From Ranitomeya imitator (Eukaryota): DNA of 64,000 bases. The DNA lies in contig NC_091283.1 of NCBI RefSeq assembly GCF_032444005.1, positions 311,364,001 to 311,428,000 of the forward strand, in the 5' to 3' direction. The translations under genes and the position numbers were made by a program. Below are positions 33,149-42,428 of this stretch, in pieces (position 1 is the stretch's first letter; each line of letters begins with the position of its first letter). The notes below the pieces were generated by a model, which was not told the origin of the DNA, made no database searches, and was given only the letters and a program-made list of their open reading frames with translations.

Positions 33149-33661
33149 CAAATTCCCTGAAGTGTTGTCAATTGTATCCACTAGTGATGAGCGAGAACTA
33201 AAATGCTTGAGTGCGCGTTATTCGAATCAAGCAGGTTGGACGCATGGACTCGAGTACTGAGTATAGTGAAAGTCAATGGGAAAGCATTTTACCAGAAGAC
33301 CCCAGCAGGAGGGCTAGGGGGGCTGGAAAATCCTGAAATGTTTGAAATCACTGTTCAAATGGAATGGGAACAGCATGGTGAAGACGCCTGAACACACATC
33401 AGACTGGTTACTAAATAAATAAATAATGTAAAAAATCACATGGGGTCCTTTCCCATTTTTGATAACTACACAGCTGACATCTACCCTCCAAAATATTACC
33501 CTGATTGCCCGTGCACCCGGAAAAAAGCCAGGCAAAATGCCAGGATTGATACATCTAATGTAATGCGCCAATTTTGGGGCTGATGTGGGCTGGTATTTTT
33601 AGGCTCGAAAGGGGCTTTTTTTTTACTAATTATATAATAGGTTTAAAAAAGTTAACCCCTT

Positions 33662-34623
33662 TGTGAGGAGTCGAGTTTCCTCTGCTGCACAGGGGGAATC
33701 TCGATCCGTCTCCGCTGCGGTCTCCCATTCTCCTCCAGCCGCAGTGGAGCCTGCTCAGCAGGGACATCGATCCCAGCGTCTCGCTCAGTCTGACTCTGTG
33801 AGAAGAGTTACTGCTGCTTCTCCAGCTTCTGCCTTTAAAGCCAATACTGGTCAGCAGCGAGTGGACTTCTCTGGGACTAAGTCCTTGTCTGCGCACACTG
33901 AGCATGCCCAGGGCAAGATCTCCCGTTGGAGATCAAGGGTCATGTGCTCAGACTCTGCAGCGCATTCTATTGGTCCTCTTGGCAGGTCTTGGAAGGGCAA
34001 AGTTTCTGTGGCCGCTTCCTGTCCTGCAGCTATATAAACTGCGCATGACCGCACGGCCATGCGCTAGTGTACAACTTTATACGTGTGTTTGTTGTGAGTG
34101 CAAGTCGTCCTTTAAATACCCCTACCCTACTGTATGATTGTTCGCGTATGGTGTATGGCTGCTATCTAGCGCCCGACTTAACACTCAACGTGTCACACAC
34201 GTGTCAGCGTCCTCTGCTGTGACCGCCAGTGCGGCGCCACGCGCCTGTGTGCGCTTCCTGACCCATGTCTGGGTACTTAGTGGTGCCTGCCAGCACGGCA
34301 CAGTTTGCACTTCGGTGCCTCTATTGTATATACTTTTCACACCCAGTTGTGGTGTAGTGCCAGCAAGGGTCTAATCGGACTACTATCCCTGTTGGGGTCT
34401 AGTTCGCTGACCACTTGCTCGCGCTCTATGTGCGGTACCGCGATCCTGTGATGCAACAGGATCGCTTTCTTCACGCTGGGTGAGGTTTAACCCACGCGTG
34501 TATACTTATGAGTACCGCCATATCGTCTGTCATGTCCTAGCAGCAGGTTTCACCTGCACGGTGGACCCCGGACTGCGAACGCATCCATTACATCTCTCTT
34601 GGTGCGTTCCGCCAGTCCTAACA
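33662..34623 (+). repeat. 5' LTR (962 bp)
   Basis: About 6 differences from the 3' LTR by eye (4 substitutions and two 1-bp indels). Confidence 0.95.
34031..34038 (+). promoter_or_regulatory. TATA box of the LTR promoter
   Basis: TATATAAA, 30 nt upstream of the 11-mer complementary to the primer-binding site. Confidence 0.7.
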
Positions 34624-34624
34624 T

Positions 34625-34635
34625 TACACTAGCGC
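34625..34635 (+). promoter_or_regulatory. Self-priming primer-binding site (no tRNA complement)
   Basis: tacactagcgc is the exact reverse complement of gcgctagtgta at 34061-34071. Confidence 0.8.
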
Positions 34636-34651
34636 CAGGGTCTGGCTAGTG

Positions 34652-37600
34652 ATGACAGACATACAGCAATCTCTGTGGCATATCCAGCAGCTGGAGGGTA
34701 GGTTGGCGGCTCTCGAGAGCGCGACCTCAGCTGTGGATGTTACTGCAGTAGCTGTACAGGCTGCCAGCGTGGCTGCAGCTACTATGTCCATTGCCACCCC
34801 TGTTCCGACATTATCTCACCTCCCGCTGCCAGAAAAATTTTCTGGTGATAGCAAGTTTTGTAGGGGATTTGTGAGTCAGTGCTCTATTCATCTCGAGCTC
34901 CTGGCTACACGTTTTCCCACAGAGCGGGCTAAGGTGGGATTTATTTTGTCTCTATTGTCGGACAGGGCGTTGGAATGGGCTACGCCGCTGTGGGAGCGTG
35001 GCGATCATGTGGTGCAGAGTGCTCCGCTGTTTCTGAGCGCTCTGAAACAGGTCTTTTTAGGACCTCAAGTCACCCATGATACTGCGCTCCAATTGCTGGC
35101 ATTAACTCAGGGTGAGTCCTTGGTCAGTCATTTTGCCGTCCAATTCCGCACCTTAGCATCTGAGCTGGATTGGTCGGATAAAGCTCTTATCCCCATATTT
35201 TGGAGGGGCTTGGCTGACCACGTAAAGGACGCTCTGGCCACTAGGGAGATTCCTGCCACACTGGAGGAGTTAATAACTGTCTCCACTCGAATTGACCTCC
35301 GTTTTAACGAGCGGAGGTTAGAGCGAGCCCAGTGTAGGCAGAGGTTTCGGCTGGCTCCTACTTTTGCCAAACCTCTTGAATTTCCAGTCCTGGTTCCTGA
35401 GTCACATGAGGCCAGGGAGGTGTCACAAGCAGGATCTAAGTCCCGGACCGCTTGTGCACTCAGGGTCTGTCATGTTTGCCAGCAGTCAGGACATCTAGCC
35501 ACCAGATGTCCTCAGCGGTCGAGGAAACGTCAGCGTCTAGTGGTAGTTGGTGGAGGTACACTAGACATGGCGACGTTTGCCTCTAAGTTGTCCTTTAAGG
35601 GAACAATTACTATTGGCTCATTTTCCCACTCGGTAGAGCTCTGCGTGGATTCTGGGGCGGAGGGCAACTTTATGTCTTCTGCCTTCGCCCAACGTCACGC
35701 AATACCCTTGGTTATGCTTGCTCAACCAGTAACGGTGCGAGTGGTGAATGGGTCGACATTGCCCTCACAGATAACACACCAGACCATCCCTTTTACTCTG
35801 TCCATGTCGCCATCTCATCAGGAGATAATTTCTCTGCTCGTCATTCCGGAAGGAATTGATGAGATCCTGTTGGGAATACCTTGGCTACGGTACCACTCTC
35901 CTCATATCGAGTGGTCCTCAGGCAGAATTCTGGGTTGGGGTGAATCTTGTGGGGGTAGGTGTCAGAGGGAGTGCGTTCAGGTTGCTACTACTGAGGTATC
36001 CGCAGATCTATCCTCTCTCCCCAAGCAGTATTGGTCATATGCAGACGTATTCTCCAAAAAGGTGGCGGAGACCCTTCCGCCCCATCGCCCCTATGACTGT
36101 CCTATTGACCTCTTGCCTGGTGCTGAGCCTCCCCGGGGTCGAGTCTATCCGCTATCTCTCCCGGAGACGGAGGCAATGTCACAGTACATACAGGAAAATC
36201 TGGCAAGAGGGTTCATCAGGAAGTCAGTGTCACCTGCTGGGGCAGGGTTCTTCTTCGTGCAGAAGAAGAGTGGGGAATTGCGTCCATGCATAGACTACAG
36301 GGGTCTTAACGCCATCACCGTTAAGAATAAATACCCTTTGCCTTTGATATCTGAACTGTTCGATAGGCTTCGGGGAGCAAGGGTATTTACTAAATTAGAT
36401 CTGCGGGGTGCTTACAACCTGATTCGCATCCGTGAGGGGGACGAATGGAAGACGGCTTTTAACACCAGGGATGGGCACTATGAATATCTGGTGATGCCCT
36501 TTGGGCTCTGTAATGCCCCAGCCGTTTTCCAAGACTTTGTGAACGATATCTTCCGGGATATGCTTTCCACCTCGGTCGTAGTCTATCTGGATGATATTCT
36601 CATCTACTCTCCAGATATTGACTCCCACCGGAGAGATGTTTGCAAAGTCTTCGACCTCCTACGGGCAAACTCCCTCTATGCCAAGTTGGAGAAGTGCATG
36701 TTTGAGCAGGAGTCCTTACCTTTCCTAGGCTACATCATCTCTGCCCAGGGATTGGCTATGGATCCTGCCAAACTACAGGCTGTGATGGACTGGCAGGAAC
36801 CTCATTCTCTTAAAGCGGTGCAGCGCTTTATGGGGTTCATCAATTATTATCGCCAGTTCATCCCGCATTTCTCAACTTTGGTAGCTCCCTTGGTTGCCCT
36901 CACCAAGAAGGGGGCAAATCCTAAATTGTGGTCTGAGGAGGTCTCCAAGGCCTTTATCTCTATAAAGTCACACTTCGCTAGCGCTCCCATACTTCATCGC
37001 CCCGATGTTGATAAGCCATTTATCATGGAGGTGGATGCCTCTTCTGTTGGTGCTGGAGCAGTCCTCTTCCAAAAGGATGCTCAAGGTCGGAAGCATCCTT
37101 GCTTCTTTTTCTCCAAGACCTTCGCACCAGCAGAGAGGAATTATTCCATCGGGGACAGGGAGTTGCTAGCCATGAAGTTGGCTTTCTCGGAGTGGAGACA
37201 TCTCTTGGAGGGAGCACGTTTTCCCTTCCAAGTCTTCACAGATCACAAAAATTTGGTGCATCTGCAGACAGCTCAGCGGTTGAATTCTCGCCAGGCCAGA
37301 TGGTCCTTGTTCTTCTCCCGGTTTCATTTCACCCTCCATTTCCTTTCTGGGGAGAAGAACATTCGGGCCGATGCTCTCTCTCGCTCCGTTGTGTCATCTG
37401 CGGAGGAGGAGGAGGAGCCTCGGCTTATTGTCCCCACCGAGAGTTTGAGAACCGTGGCCCCGGTTTCGCTGGAGTCTGTGCCCCCGGGCAAGACTTTTGT
37501 TCCATCTAGTTTGCAGCCGGAGGTTCTCTCTTGGGCGCACTCATCCAGGGTGGGTGGACATTTTGGTACTAAAAGGACATCTGAGTTACTGGCGAGGACA

Positions 37601-38926
37601 TACTGGTGGCCGCATATGGCTCATGATGTCGCGGAGTACGTTCGGGCGTGTGTCTCTTGCGCCAGGAACAAGACTCCTCGGCAACGGCCAGCTGGTTTGC
37701 TTTACCCTCTGCCCGTGGCTGACAGGCCCTGGGAGATGGTCGGGATGGACTTTGTGGTGGGCTTACCCAAGTCTCGTAATTGCACCATTATCTGGGTGAT
37801 CACCGACCATTTCTCCAAAATGGTGCATTTGGTGCCTCTTCCACGGCTACCATCTGCACGGGCGTTGGCTGTCTTGTTTATCAAGCATATCTTACACGGT
37901 ATGCCAGACAAAATTGTTAGTGACCGGGGTCCCCAGTTTGCGTCTCGATTCTGGAGGGAGCTATGTCGTTTACTCAGTATTGAGTTAAATCTCTCTTCGG
38001 CATATCATCCCGAGACGAATGGGTTGGTAGAAAGGGCCAACCAGACCTTGGTCACATATCTGCGACATTTTGTTTCTGCCAGACAGGATGACTGGGCATC
38101 CTTGCTACCGTGGGCAGAGTTTGCACTTAACAATGCCGTAGCCGACTCCACCGGTCAGACTCCATTCCTCTTAAATTACGGCCAGCATCACCGTGTTTCA
38201 GTGCCCATGCCTGTGTCTTCCGCTGATCCCAGGGTGGCAGACTGGGCTGTGGAGGCACGGGACATTTGGGATCGCACGCAGGATGCCATTCGGGCCTCCA
38301 AGGAGAGAATGAGGTCCTCCGCCGATGTTCATCGGCGCCCTGCTCCGACTTTTGTCCCTGGCGACTTGGTGTGGCTCTCCGCCCGTAACATCAGGCTGCG
38401 AGTTGAGTCCACTAAGTTTGCTCCTCGCTACTTGGGTCCCTTCAAGGTTCTCGAACAGGTTAATCCTGTGGTCTACCGCCTGGCTCTTCCTCCACGCTTG
38501 GGTATCACCGACACCTTTCATGTGTCCCTCTTGAAACCCGTATACATGTCCCGGTTTTCCGAGTCATCTGCCGGGACATCGGGTTCGTCTACGGACGATT
38601 ACGAGGTGAACGCTATTTTGGGGTGTAAGGTGGTACGCGGCAAAAAGTTCTATCTGGTGGATTGGAAGGGTTATGGTCCAGAGAACAGGTCATGGGAGCC
38701 TGCTGAAAACATTCGGGCCCCACAGCTCATTGCTGCCTTCGAACGTAGCGAGGTCCAAGGAGGGGGGGCCCTAGGAGGGGGGGTAATGTTAGGAGTCGAG
38801 TTTCCTCTGCTGCACAGGGGGAATCTCGATCCGTCTCCGCTGCGGTCTCCCATTCTCCTCCAGCCGCAGTGGAGCCTGCTCAGCAGGGACGTCGATCCCA
38901 GCGTCTCGCTCAGTCTGACTCTGTGA
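34652..38926 (+). CDS. gag-pol: Gag-Pol polyprotein: gag, CCHC knuckle, protease, RT, RNase H, integrase, chromodomain
   Basis: LPEKFSGD (gag), CHVCQQSGHLATRC, VDSGAEGNF, YLDDILIY, EVDASSVGAGAVL, GHFG...CVSC, MDFVVGLP...SDRGPQF, YEVNAIL...YLVDWKGYGPENRSWEP; no internal stop. Confidence 0.95.
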   Translation: MTDIQQSLWHIQQLEGRLAALESATSAVDVTAVAVQAASVAAATMSIATPVPTLSHLPLPEKFSGDSKFCRGFVSQCSIHLELLATRFPTERAKVGFILSLLSDRALEWATPLWERGDHVVQSAPLFLSALKQVFLGPQVTHDTALQLLALTQGESLVSHFAVQFRTLASELDWSDKALIPIFWRGLADHVKDALATREIPATLEELITVSTRIDLRFNERRLERAQCRQRFRLAPTFAKPLEFPVLVPESHEAREVSQAGSKSRTACALRVCHVCQQSGHLATRCPQRSRKRQRLVVVGGGTLDMATFASKLSFKGTITIGSFSHSVELCVDSGAEGNFMSSAFAQRHAIPLVMLAQPVTVRVVNGSTLPSQITHQTIPFTLSMSPSHQEIISLLVIPEGIDEILLGIPWLRYHSPHIEWSSGRILGWGESCGGRCQRECVQVATTEVSADLSSLPKQYWSYADVFSKKVAETLPPHRPYDCPIDLLPGAEPPRGRVYPLSLPETEAMSQYIQENLARGFIRKSVSPAGAGFFFVQKKSGELRPCIDYRGLNAITVKNKYPLPLISELFDRLRGARVFTKLDLRGAYNLIRIREGDEWKTAFNTRDGHYEYLVMPFGLCNAPAVFQDFVNDIFRDMLSTSVVVYLDDILIYSPDIDSHRRDVCKVFDLLRANSLYAKLEKCMFEQESLPFLGYIISAQGLAMDPAKLQAVMDWQEPHSLKAVQRFMGFINYYRQFIPHFSTLVAPLVALTKKGANPKLWSEEVSKAFISIKSHFASAPILHRPDVDKPFIMEVDASSVGAGAVLFQKDAQGRKHPCFFFSKTFAPAERNYSIGDRELLAMKLAFSEWRHLLEGARFPFQVFTDHKNLVHLQTAQRLNSRQARWSLFFSRFHFTLHFLSGEKNIRADALSRSVVSSAEEEEEPRLIVPTESLRTVAPVSLESVPPGKTFVPSSLQPEVLSWAHSSRVGGHFGTKRTSELLARTYWWPHMAHDVAEYVRACVSCARNKTPRQRPAGLLYPLPVADRPWEMVGMDFVVGLPKSRNCTIIWVITDHFSKMVHLVPLPRLPSARALAVLFIKHILHGMPDKIVSDRGPQFASRFWRELCRLLSIELNLSSAYHPETNGLVERANQTLVTYLRHFVSARQDDWASLLPWAEFALNNAVADSTGQTPFLLNYGQHHRVSVPMPVSSADPRVADWAVEARDIWDRTQDAIRASKERMRSSADVHRRPAPTFVPGDLVWLSARNIRLRVESTKFAPRYLGPFKVLEQVNPVVYRLALPPRLGITDTFHVSLLKPVYMSRFSESSAGTSGSSTDDYEVNAILGCKVVRGKKFYLVDWKGYGPENRSWEPAENIRAPQLIAAFERSEVQGGGALGGGVMLGVEFPLLHRGNLDPSPLRSPILLQPQWSLLSRDVDPSVSLSLTL
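38775..38783 (+). promoter_or_regulatory. Polypurine tract
   Basis: G-rich run ending 3 nt before the TG of the 3' LTR. Confidence 0.7.
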
Positions 38927-39746
38927 GAAGAGTTACTGCTGCTTCTCCAGCTTCTGCCTTTAAAGCCAATACTGGTCAGCAGCGAGTGGACTTCTCTGGG
39001 ACTAAGTCCTTGTCTGCGCACACTGAGCATGCCCAGGGCAAGATCTCCCGTTGGAGATCGAGGGTCATGTGCTCAGACTCTGCAGCGCATTCTATTGGTC
39101 CTCTTGGCAGGTCTTGGAAGGGCAAAGTTTCTGTGGCCGCTTCCTGTCCTGCAGCTATATAAACTGCGCATGACCGCACGGCCATGCGCTAGTGTACAAC
39201 TTTATACGTGTGTTTGTTGTGAGTGCAAGTCGTCCTTTAAATACCCCTACCCTACTGTATGATTGTTCGCGTATGGTGTATGGCTGCTATCTAGCGCCCG
39301 ACTTAACACTCAACGTGTCACACACGTGTCAGCGTCCTCTGCTGTGACCGCCAGTGCGGCGCCACGCGCCTGTGTGCGCTTCCTGACCCATGTCTGGGTA
39401 CTTAGTGGTGCCTGCCAGCACGCACAGTTTGCACTTCGGTGCCTCTATTGTATATACTTTTCACACCCAGTTGTGGTGTAGTGCCAGCAAGGGTCTAATC
39501 GGACTACTATCCCTGTTGGGGTCTAGTTCGCTGACCACTTGCTCGCGCTCTATGTGCGGTCCGCGATCCTGTGACGCAACAGGATCGCTTTCTTCACGCT
39601 GGGTGAGGTTTAACCCACGCGTGTATACTTATGAGTACCGCCATATCGTCTGTCATGTCCTAGCAGCAGGTTTCACCTGCACGGTGGACCCCGGACTGCG
39701 AACGCATCCATTACATCTCTCTTGGTGCGTTCCGCCAGTCCTAACA
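38787..39746 (+). repeat. 3' LTR (960 bp)
   Basis: TGttaggagtcg...cctaaCA, a direct repeat of 33662-34623. Confidence 0.95.
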
Positions 39747-39964
39747 CCCTTAACATGCGCCGTATGTATACTGCTCTTCGGGAGCTGGTTCCCGCGAAGC
39801 GAAGTATATATACGGTGCCGCTATTTCTGAGCACAGCGCTGCATCGTGCGTTGACCAGGTTAAGATGGGACAGCAGACCATCCATGCACGTTGTCCAAAA
39901 GAAGATGAACAGCGCTCCAGCCGGGTGTCGTAGTATCAAAAGAAATCTTTATTGATCCATGAAG

Positions 39965-40004: not shown

Positions 40005-41982
40005 ACAGCAAGGTACAAAGTGTCGGCTTAAATGGTGTGGATACCACACAGGGCACCAATCACCAACCAGCCACTAATTACATACACAAATATAACAAAT
40101 AACATCAATCAGACAACACATAATTCTTTAAAATGGATACCAACAATGTCTATAGCATAGGAGAAAAGAAAATCAAAACAAAAAGCATATAACATATGCC
40201 ACTACTTCAATGTTTATTTTCCGTCCAGCCAGTTAGGGTCCGGCATAATCGTAACCATGTTTACAAAGCTCCAATAGAATTGTCACTACAGCGATCCTCA
40301 TATCCAATCCGGATCCTTTCTGTGATTGGCGCCAAAATTCAACCAGCCTATCCAGCCTCATCATGCTTCCAGTAAAGGACCTGAATAACAAATCAGGCAA
40401 CCGCTTACAGCATATATCGTACCTGCATCATAATCCTGCGTCACACCTCCGGCAGACCACAGGACCGCAGAAAACCCAGAAGCACCCTGATGAGTATAGC
40501 TGCGCGTCATGGCAGCCGCACGCCCACATCACATGACCGCAGAGTGGGGCCCGCCCTGCTGCGACGTAACCATCCATACCCCATGCGGAGGAGAAGCCAC
40601 AGACGTGCGCAAGCGCGACACTGCCGGGAACTGCAGCATCGATACAAGCAGGCCCAGCGGTGACACGAACGCCACACCTCCCCGACTCCTCCCACACAAA
40701 GGAGACGTAGGCGCGTCACAGCCAGAGCGTCCCAGATGCGAAGTAACAGTGCGGGCGAGCCAGGTGCCAGTACGCAAGCGCCCAAAACACCAATGGATCT
40801 GCATAACCACGGCCACAATAAGTTGCCATGGTGACCTGAAAAACATAACTAGGTAATTTAACCATCTACGGATAGTGCAGCTCAAGTATAATAAATGGGA
40901 ATGTCCACAATAACCATATGGATCTTAGAGCTACACAAACAGAAGACGAAAAAAGACTCCAGACACTGTATATTTGATCCTTTGAATAATTAAAAACATT
41001 ATTGATAAAAAAAAGAAAACACTTTAAAAACAAAATACTGATGAAGATGCCATAGCTGAGGGGAGATAGAATTATTTAGGGATACAAACCTGCAAATTAA
41101 AGTCTAAATTAAGACCTCCAGGCTGTAAAGTCCCTAATGAGTAAATCCATCTCATTTCCTTCTTCCTAAGCAGTAATAATCTATCCCCTCCTCTCCTCAA
41201 AGCTGGAACACTATCTATTACCCTAAAGCGTAATTGGTTGACAGAATGTTTATTATCCAAAAAATGTTTGGGGATTGGCAAATCTGTAAGTCCTGTTCGT
41301 ATTGTGCTTTTATGCTTACTGATTGTGTCGGGGAGGGGCTCTCTATTTAATAAGACGGCTATTTTTTTGGATAAAGTATTGCGTACCTATGCCACATCAG
41401 CCAAATCCTACATTCGTGACACAAATGACTTTCTTAATAAACTTGAAGACATCACTGTATCTGAGACTACCGTGCTTGCGTCGTTCGACGTTGTATCATT
41501 ATACATGTCGATCGAGCATGACAAGGGGCTCGATGCGGTCTCTTGTGCGCTATCGGGCTCTGACGTGGCCCCAGAGAGTGCACGACTTGTCCTCACACTG
41601 TTAGAGCTCATCCTCAGGAGGAACTATTTTCTCTTTGGGGATGAGTTCTTTTTACAGTTGAGGGGTACCGCCATGGGATCCAATGTGGCCCCCACTTATG
41701 CCAACATCTATATGGCGGTATTCGAGGACAGGTTTGTGTACTGTTCCAACCTCTGGCGCCACGTCAGAGCTTGGTGGCGTTACATTGATGACATTTTTTT
41801 TATTTGGGACGGTAATGTGACAGAGCTTAATGAGTTTCATCAATATCTTAACGGAGTGTACGTGGAGCTACAGTTCACCCTGACATCCTCTACTTCTCAG
41901 CTCCAGTTTTTGGATACCCTTGTGTACAAGGAAGGAGATAAATTGAAGACAGACATCTTTGTGAAAGAGACGGATAGAAATG

Positions 41983-42428
41983 ACAGGGTAAAAGAAAGTT
42001 CTACTTCCACACTGCCCCGATAATCTGACCCCAATGTGCACAACAGCAAAAACCACATGCAAAGGGGCGTATATGGCTGATAATTTCCTTTTCATTACCA
42101 ACGGGGTGCTGCATCCAACAAAAGCATACAGAGTTCATAAAGGAAAAACGAGGAAAAAGATTGGAGAGCACTTACCCAGGTAAAATAGTCACCACTTTAT
42201 TAGGACTTTGTACAAAAAGCAGGGAAGGGAGTGGATAAAGATCGGACGACGGCCGTTTCGTGCAGAGTGGCACTTCAACGGGTCCTCCGTTGAAGTGCCA
42301 CTCTGCACGAAACGGCCGTCGTCCAATCTTTATCCACTCCCTTCCCTGCTTTTTGTACAAAGTCCTAATAAAGTGGTGACTATTTTACCTGGGTAAGTGC
42401 ACTCCAATCTTTTTCCTCGTTTTTCCTT
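41983..42428 (-). mobile_element. Fold-back mini-element D (289-bp palindrome plus 157-bp tail, 14-bp TSD)
   Basis: Palindrome 42140-42428 with a 5-nt loop at 42282-42286; gacggatagaaatg at 41969-41982 and 42429-42442. Confidence 0.85.
42244..42285 (-). ncRNA. Hammerhead-like motif with variant core
   Basis: Minus strand: ggac CCGTTGA a gtgc-cactct-gcac GAAAC ggcc GTC gtcc; all stems pair, the core differs from CUGANGA at two positions. Confidence 0.6.

What the first reader, a model, noticed from the sequence alone, without database searches (positions are those of the whole stretch)
34031..34635. tRNA-independent self-priming signature in a vertebrate chromovirus: perfect 11-nt match at TATA+30
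Seen: no TGG tRNA-type PBS follows the 5' LTR. Instead tacactagcgc (34625-34635) is the exact complement of gcgctagtgta (34061-34071), which begins 30 nt after TATATAAA, where a Pol II start is expected. A short hairpin (ctagcgccag-ggt-ctggctag) overlaps the PBS just before the ATG. Established: fission yeast Tf1 primes minus-strand synthesis with the first 11 nt of its own transcript, and this has been proposed for Tf1/sushi-group elements. Inference: this near-intact frog element uses the same mechanism and is a tractable vertebrate model for it.
Basis: partly seen in the sequence, partly recalled or inferred. Interest (0 to 1): 0.7.

Follow-up and report, generated by a model that had tools for sequence, protein, structure and literature searches.

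The report
Self-priming frog retrotransposon, 10-base primer
This frog jumping gene has no tRNA docking site; instead the bases after its left repeat pair with the predicted first bases of its own RNA, a pairing kept with changed letters across related families, so it likely starts DNA copying with about ten bases of its own transcript, as shown in yeast Tf1 and already proposed for this group.

Summary
This young chromovirus (5' LTR 33662-34623, 5-bp target duplication, one gag-pol frame with a chromodomain) has no TGG site; its PBS is the exact complement of the 11-mer at TATA+30 (6 of 5000 shuffles). The family has 12,378 such junctions in this genome. In 67 of 71 sampled copies, all keep 10-11 pairs, and position 9 changes on both sides together. 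Two flanking duplexes also covary, completing the Tf1 'pretzel'. Eleven other LTR families here, plus three sequence types from metagenome contigs, show different 9-11-mers in the same geometry. Two corrections. The 11th pair is dispensable: natural recombinants show PBS position 9 following the primer while position 11 follows its flanks, which points to a primer of about 10 nt plus a 2-nt spacer. The start site and the cut are untested. Self-priming was already proposed for vertebrate Tf1/sushi elements, and this scan noted similar signatures in other genomes. Verdict: new member of a known kind, with unusually good population evidence.

The parts
33657..33661 (+). 5-bp target-site duplication, left copy (right copy 39747-39751)
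   Evidence: identical 5-mers on both sides
33662..34623 (+). 5' LTR, 962 bp, TG...CA
   Evidence: 4 substitutions and 2 one-base indels against the 3' LTR
34031..34038 (+). TATA box
   Evidence: only hit of the TATA[AT]A[AT] scan in the LTR; 0.93 conserved against 0.75-0.78 in neighbouring LTR stretches
34061..34071 (+). predicted transcript start and self-primer; nt 1-10 (34061-34070) are the required core, nt 11 pairs in this subfamily only
   Evidence: TATA+30, T|G start; covariation with the PBS; start site inferred, not measured
34562..34568 (+). U5 arm of the U5-leader duplex (pairs with 34638-34644)
   Evidence: 34568:34638 is C:G in 50, T:A in 19, T:G in 1, A:G in 1 of 71 copies
34570..34618 (+). 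U5 end stem-loop (34570-34583 with 34603-34618)
   Evidence: 34572:34616 is A:T in 36, G:C in 27, unscored in 8 of 71; loop variable (0.70), arms 0.94-0.95 conserved
34624..34625 (+). inferred 2-nt spacer between the LTR-terminal CA and the PBS core
   Evidence: varies TT/TA/GA/GT with the flanking sequence, not with the primer
34626..34635 (+). primer-binding site core, complement of 34061-34070
34652..38926 (+). single gag-pol frame, 1424 aa: capsid, CCHC, protease, RT, RNase H, integrase, SH3, chromodomain; runs into the 3' LTR; 6-nt in-frame gap near 37893 relative to sister copies
38773..38786 (+). polypurine tract and 3 bases before the 3' LTR
   Evidence: sequence
38787..39746 (+). 3' LTR, 960 bp; second copy of the primer sequence at 39186-39196

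Best explanation
This is a young Ty3/gypsy chromovirus whose PBS is complementary to the LTR segment 30 nt behind the TATA box, and it likely primes minus-strand DNA synthesis with about the first 10 nt of its own transcript instead of a tRNA. Steps: (1) Pol II is inferred to start at G34061. (2) The 5' end folds onto 34626-34635, held by two flanking duplexes (U5 stem and U5-leader stem); the pairing is shown by covariation, the fold itself is predicted. (3) By analogy with Tf1, the element's RNase H would cut the RNA after nt 10 (or 9) to free a 3' OH; untested. (4) Minus-strand DNA starts 2 nt outside the LTR-terminal CA, which would give 2-nt cDNA extensions that mirror the two bases before the TG at the PPT end; inferred. 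(5) Plus-strand synthesis would copy the still-attached primer and so rewrite the PBS from the primer, which explains why the PBS follows the primer in recombinants; inferred.
For: Match and chance test. Position-defined test: the segment at TATA+30 was found in 67 of 71 copies; 52 pair 11/11, 15 pair 10/11, none fewer; position 9 is A:T in 43 and G:C in 24 with no cross type; position 12 pairs in 5 of 67. Flanking duplexes covary. Across families: 22 of 26 complete elements have a 9-11-nt match, every one of 11 LTR clusters has at least one such copy, RT identity down to 62%; foreign-LTR control 14 of 584, two flank controls 0 of 26 each; a twelfth type and 8 of 8 further complete elements. 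These matches start at a G 29-31 nt behind a TATA-like box (spacing read by eye). Five metagenome contigs at 59-60% RT-RNase H identity show three more primer sequences at TATA+30 to 32. Length: 27 of 27 scored GAAC copies (344 in the genome) and 18 of 19 scored GTAT copies lack pair 11. GAAC copies have R from the TTAC type (25 of 27) but U5 (25 of 27) and leader+gag (26 of 27) from the ATT-primer types, with PBS position 9 matching the primer and position 11 matching the flanks; L118 is the reverse case. The product expected from copying an 11-nt primer was seen in 0 of 25 scored GTAC copies (95 in the genome). About half of Tf1 cDNA carries a PBS reverse-transcribed as single-stranded DNA (PMC11042837, passages).
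Against: No start site, cut or primer RNA was observed; only assembled contigs were available. The minimum-energy fold of 34061-34660 forms the local hairpin, not the primer duplex; the duplex has probability 0.37 and costs 0.6 kcal/mol more. Within-family covariation rests on few events: independent pairs 4 of 4 (position 9), 4.7 of 5 (U5-leader), 3 of 5 (position 11), none significant, and 75 of 682 tightly linked column pairs (11%) are complementary in both states by descent alone. Three of 138 copies are A:C at position 9 and one is T:C (probably mis-anchored). Pair 11 is kept with both letters changed in 63 of 67 unselected copies, so it may be favoured. The U5-leader duplex was clear in only 4 other families of 11 tested and was not significant against shuffles for the window copy (53 of 200). 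One family has a 4-nt spacer. Four of 26 elements have matches of only 5-8 nt, read as decayed copies.
Confidence: 0.8

Rival explanations
1. Self-priming exactly as in Tf1, with an 11-nt primer and a cut between nt 11 and 12, leaving a 1-nt spacer.
For: The window copy pairs 11/11, and pair 11 is T:A in 38 and A:T in 25 of 67 copies; 4 of 12 families have a match beginning 1 nt after the LTR.
Against: Subfamilies with hundreds of copies have A:A or C:T at position 11, which would be a mismatched 3' end, and it is not corrected; 7 of 12 families match from 2 nt after the LTR with 9-10 pairs counted from TATA+30. The cut could still differ between subfamilies.
Confidence: 0.12
2. The primer is the same sequence but comes from the 3' copy of R or from the second RNA in the particle (trans priming).
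For: The same 11-mer is present at 39186-39196; DNA copies cannot tell cis from trans; an earlier unchecked scan note (e1-7857552) reads another lineage this way.
Against: The match starts at TATA+29 to 31 in all 12 families, which only a 5'-end primer needs; the flanking duplexes are local to the 5' leader; L133 has a primer change shared by both LTRs but not by its PBS (one case).
Confidence: 0.05
3. A host RNA (internal tRNA fragment or other small RNA) is the primer and the duplex is only a structural or packaging element.
For: The host's tRNA set was not screened for internal complements; no priming event was observed.
Against: Twelve families have twelve different PBS sequences, each matching its own LTR; PBS position 9 follows the element's own R region in recombinants; no TGG start in any of 26 elements.
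Confidence: 0.02
4. Chance complementarity inherited by descent.
For: 11% of linked column pairs are complementary in both states.
Against: 6 of 5000 shuffles; 22 of 26 own against 14 of 584 foreign matches; fixed TATA spacing with different letters.
Confidence: 0.01

Closest known systems
Tf1/Tf2 of Schizosaccharomyces pombe (self-primed; shown by experiment)
   Same: Chromodomain Ty3/gypsy element, single ORF, PBS complementary to the transcript's 5' end, three-duplex 'pretzel' (bioRxiv 10.1101/2022.12.06.519325, passages; PMC7175516, passages).
   Different: Tf1 uses 11 nt cut between bases 11 and 12, and its PBS begins right at the LTR end as read from PMC11042837 (passages). Here the core is 10 bp with an inferred 2-nt spacer, Gag has a CCHC motif (absent from the fission-yeast elements), and nothing has been tested at the bench.
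Vertebrate Tf1/sushi group (GyDB V-clade: sushi-ichi, Amn-ichi/ni/san)
   Same: Vertebrate chromovirus for which self-priming and the pretzel were proposed (Butler et al. 2001, seen only as cited; the paper itself was not read). Nearest proteins are amphibian and fish chromodomain polyproteins.
   Different: Non-fission-yeast members are said to use mostly a -1 frameshift, whereas this family has one frame (many copies with open frames of about 1500 aa). Whether Butler et al. already drew 10 bp plus a 2-nt spacer could not be checked.
Tcn1-clade chromoviruses of fungi and mosses
   Same: No tRNA PBS; self-priming predicted from sequence (PMC6317226, passages).
   Different: Different hosts; in the passages read, predicted rather than tested.

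Membership tests
Chromovirus (Ty3/gypsy) | Gag-PR-RT-RH-IN order with a C-terminal chromodomain | tested here: met
   Pfam hits in this order, Chromo E 7e-13 at aa 1317-1365; best solved relative is Ty3 Gag-Pol
Chromovirus (Ty3/gypsy) | TG...CA LTRs, PPT, 5-bp target duplication | tested here: met
Tf1/sushi group | RT-IN phylogeny inside the Tf1/sushi clade | tested here: inconclusive
   No tree with named references was built. Best single-copy hits are amphibian and fish chromodomain polyproteins at 60-98%, some auto-named Tf2
Tf1/sushi group | No PBS for a tRNA 3' end | tested here: met
   no TGG start in the window or in 26 of 26 elements
Tf1/sushi group | No complement to an internal tRNA segment | not tested
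   host tRNA set not screened; the Rfam scan of 33600-34800 (+ and - strands) gave 0 hits but is too coarse for 10 nt
Tf1/sushi group | PBS complementary to the predicted 5' end of the transcript | tested here: met
Tf1/sushi group | Three-duplex pretzel around the PBS | tested here: met
   both flanking duplexes covary in this family; mixed in other families
Tf1/sushi group | Transcript begins at the first primer base | not testable with these tools
   only contigs were available
Tf1/sushi group | RNase H cut that releases the primer | not testable with these tools
   RNase H domain present; activity not testable
Tf1 itself (exact geometry) | 11-nt primer with the PBS abutting the LTR | tested here: not met
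   1-2-nt spacer in 11 of 12 families, 4 nt in one; pair 11 dispensable

The most novel reading that the evidence does not exclude
Natural recombinants among some 12,000 genomic copies record primer-to-PBS copying in vivo and map the cut to just after nt 10. Vertebrate chromoviruses would then join Tf1-type self-priming to retrovirus-type 2-nt cDNA ends that need integrase processing, and this would be genetic evidence, not just a drawn structure, of self-priming in a vertebrate.
Probability: 0.55. Interest if true: 0.6.

Novelty: new member of a known kind. Interest (0 to 1): 0.4.

Why it matters
Self-priming has been shown by experiment in fission yeast; for vertebrates, the passages read call it proposed or implicated, and seven searches turned up no vertebrate test, though the library lacks most subscription papers and Butler 2001 was not read. 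A family with about 12,000 copies and natural haplotypes that differ at single primer positions gives exact predictions (start at one G, a capped 10-mer, 2-nt cDNA extensions) that RNA and cDNA-end sequencing can test without altering any element. It also suggests that one of the most abundant young elements of this large genome replicates without the tRNA step.

Tried and rejected
RNA evidence: 16 runs listed, none on record as RNA; four laid runs were contigs, which cover the stretch but cannot show a start or strand: no evidence either way. RT protein search of the own genome returned only 150 near-identical copies, so PPT patterns and a Pfam SH3 search were used to reach other families; two searches were close to their controls and gave few usable loci. 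A single pattern spanning primer and PBS was not accepted, so pairing was scored on fetched copies. One search had a faulty tblastn option, a faulty primer pattern (its position 9 and 11 tests are void; redone), and mis-oriented five loci (its 'F8' rows are artefacts; redone). The MAFFT columns for position 11 and for 34572:34616 were shifted by indels; anchored counts are used instead. Of 101 loci tried for the family survey, 87 were oriented and 26 kept as complete LTR pairs (33 no 5' LTR, 26 truncated or no ACA end, 2 short); 14 more were retried (8 complete, 1 wrong end, 5 no pair). Of 79 metagenome loci, 48 had enough upstream DNA; 10 were flagged, 5 accepted, L208 left open, L202 and L223-L225 rejected as weak-TATA or low-complexity; no chance rate was computed for that screen. 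Rfam: 0 hits. The original Levin papers and the Esnault review were not held. The local hairpin was rejected as the conserved structure, although it may compete with the primer duplex. No AATAAA or ATTAAA was found in the LTR, so the R/U5 border is unplaced.

Full report
Anatomy. The finding lies in the 5' LTR and leader of a complete LTR retrotransposon: 5' LTR 33662-34623, 3' LTR 38787-39746, 4 substitutions and 2 one-base indels between them, a 5-bp target duplication, and a PPT at 38773-38783. One frame of 1424 aa (34652-38926) holds capsid, protease, RT, RNase H, integrase, SH3 and chromodomain in Ty3/gypsy order. The closest named proteins are from Ranitomeya imitator (96-98% over RT-RNase H), then other amphibians and fish at about 60-74%, so a frog host is likely. 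The copy has a 6-nt in-frame gap near 37893 in the integrase core against 6 of 6 sisters that aligned. The family is very large: 12,378 LTR-PBS-leader junctions in the genome, control 0.

Observation. All coordinates are right. The 11-mer at TATA+30 is the longest complement of the post-LTR bases in the LTR; 6 of 5000 shuffles reach that length. Folding alone is equivocal: the primer duplex is -18.9 kcal/mol in isolation but has probability 0.37 in the 600-nt leader, and the lowest-energy fold prefers the local hairpin by 0.6 kcal/mol.

Within-family test. The first 70 listed junctions plus the window were examined. Defining the primer by position alone (TATA-like box +30), 67 of 71 could be scored: 52 pair 11/11 and 15 pair 10/11; position 9 is A:T in 43 and G:C in 24 with no cross type; position 11 is T:A 38, A:T 25, mismatched 4; position 12 pairs in 5. 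Two more duplexes flank the PBS. A U5 stem (34570-34583 with 34603-34618) has A:T in 36 and G:C in 27 at one pair. These three duplexes match the description of the Tf1 pretzel (10.1101/2022.12.06.519325, passages). Caution: copies are kin. Eleven percent (75 of 682) of tightly linked column pairs are complementary in both states anyway, and tree-based independent pairs are few and not significant (4 of 4, 4.7 of 5, 3 of 5, four long rows left out).

Across families. PPT patterns and a Pfam search gave 101 loci to try, of which 26 were complete LTR pairs in 11 LTR clusters, with RT identities of 62-100% to the window where RT was present. Twenty-two of 26 have a perfect 9-11-nt match to their own LTR, and every cluster has at least one; foreign LTRs give 14 of 584, and two flank controls 0 of 26 each. 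Eight of 8 further complete elements, including a twelfth type, agree. The letters differ between families, but the matches begin at a G 29-31 nt behind a TATA-like box, after a pyrimidine in 11 of 12 families (read by eye). Five of 48 scorable metagenome loci (three different primers) show the same layout. The U5-leader duplex is evident in four other families but weak or absent in six, and the fold test is not significant for the window copy.

Primer length. Here pair 11 is dispensable: 27 of 27 scored GAAC copies (30 fetched of 344) and 18 of 19 scored GTAT copies (from 30 fetched of 1,831 NTAT) lack it. The GAAC copies are recombinants: R is nearest to the TTAC type in 25 of 27, while U5 (25 of 27) and leader+gag (26 of 27) are nearest to the ATT-primer types. 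Inside this 3' block, PBS position 9 matches the distant primer and position 11 matches the flanks; L118 shows the reverse switch. That is what is expected if plus-strand synthesis copies the attached primer into the PBS over nt 1-9/10 only; about half of Tf1 cDNA carries such a single-stranded PBS copy (PMC11042837, passages). If 11 nt were copied, GTAC with ATT-type flanks and a GTA primer should be common; it was seen in 0 of 25 scored GTAC copies (30 fetched of 95). Against this: 3 of 138 copies are A:C at position 9, the recombinants may stem from only a few founders (the label needs 5 changes on a FastTree), selection after point mutation could mimic copying, and pair 11 is kept in most unselected copies. 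Seven of 12 families match from 2 nt after the LTR, four from 1 nt, one from 4 nt. The most economical model is a primer of about 10 nt and a 2-nt spacer, mirrored by the bases before the TG at the PPT end. That such extensions need integrase 3' processing is my inference from general retroviral knowledge (recalled).

What is not shown. No start site, cleavage or primer RNA: the public runs were contigs only. Placement in Tf1/sushi rests on domains, hosts and the priming signature, not on a tree with named references.

Comparison with what is known. Self-priming is established for Tf1 and described as shared by, or implicated in, the Tf1/sushi group from fungi to vertebrates (PMC6317226, PMC4600332 and the S. 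osmophilus preprint; passages only). PMC3601003, PMC5341516 and PMC4340606 were seen as passages and add nothing on vertebrate tests. Butler et al. 2001 was seen only as a citation, and the Levin originals asked for were not held. Seven searches showed no vertebrate experiment or primer-length mapping, a weak negative given the library's limits; no supplements were read. The scan's own notes list similar signatures in ray, shark, marine-animal and moss genomes (unchecked). The copying idea was noted before that look-up; note e1-7857552 added the trans or 3' R rival.

Verdict. Real feature, correct mechanism class, already proposed for this group: new member of a known kind. The added value is population-scale covariation of all three duplexes and a natural footprint that points to a 10-nt primer. 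Interest 0.4; the bolder reading has probability 0.55 and would deserve 0.6.

Noticed in passing
G000:C1:24014796-24148440; C1:1061183394-1061194138; L120/L121; L125/L126: Head-to-tail arrays: 18 PPT-LTR junctions mostly about 7.4 kb apart, and copies of this family 5131-5167 bp apart, a spacing that implies one shared LTR. Tf1 makes such tandems by an integrase-independent, PBS-guided route (PMC11042837, passages).
   Followed up: no
L015, L034, L235: Family whose 10-nt match lies 4 nt after the LTR end instead of 1-2, with near-normal 5-bp target duplications; unexplained.
   Followed up: partly
L251, L254, L255, L256, L268; L015, L034: One family has LTRs that begin TA instead of TG on both sides; in L015 and L034 the 5' LTR begins TA while the 3' LTR begins TG.
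   Followed up: no
L020, L021, L022, L028, L035, L230, L239, L246: Short elements without an RT match (internal 0.8-2.7 kb, most with a gag remnant) keep the primer:PBS match, so non-autonomous families seem to self-prime with borrowed enzymes.
   Followed up: partly
window 34652-38926: Gag and pol are in one frame with a CCHC motif, although non-yeast Tf1/sushi elements are said to use mostly a -1 frameshift; the frame reads through the PPT and stops inside the 3' LTR.
   Followed up: partly
window 41072-42023: Open frames that resemble a Penelope-like RT (+ strand) and a GIY-YIG nuclease piece (- strand); the resemblance is recalled, not tested.
   Followed up: no
window 34440-34465 and 34472-34500: Strong predicted hairpins inside the LTR downstream of the start; role unknown, conservation not checked.
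   Followed up: no
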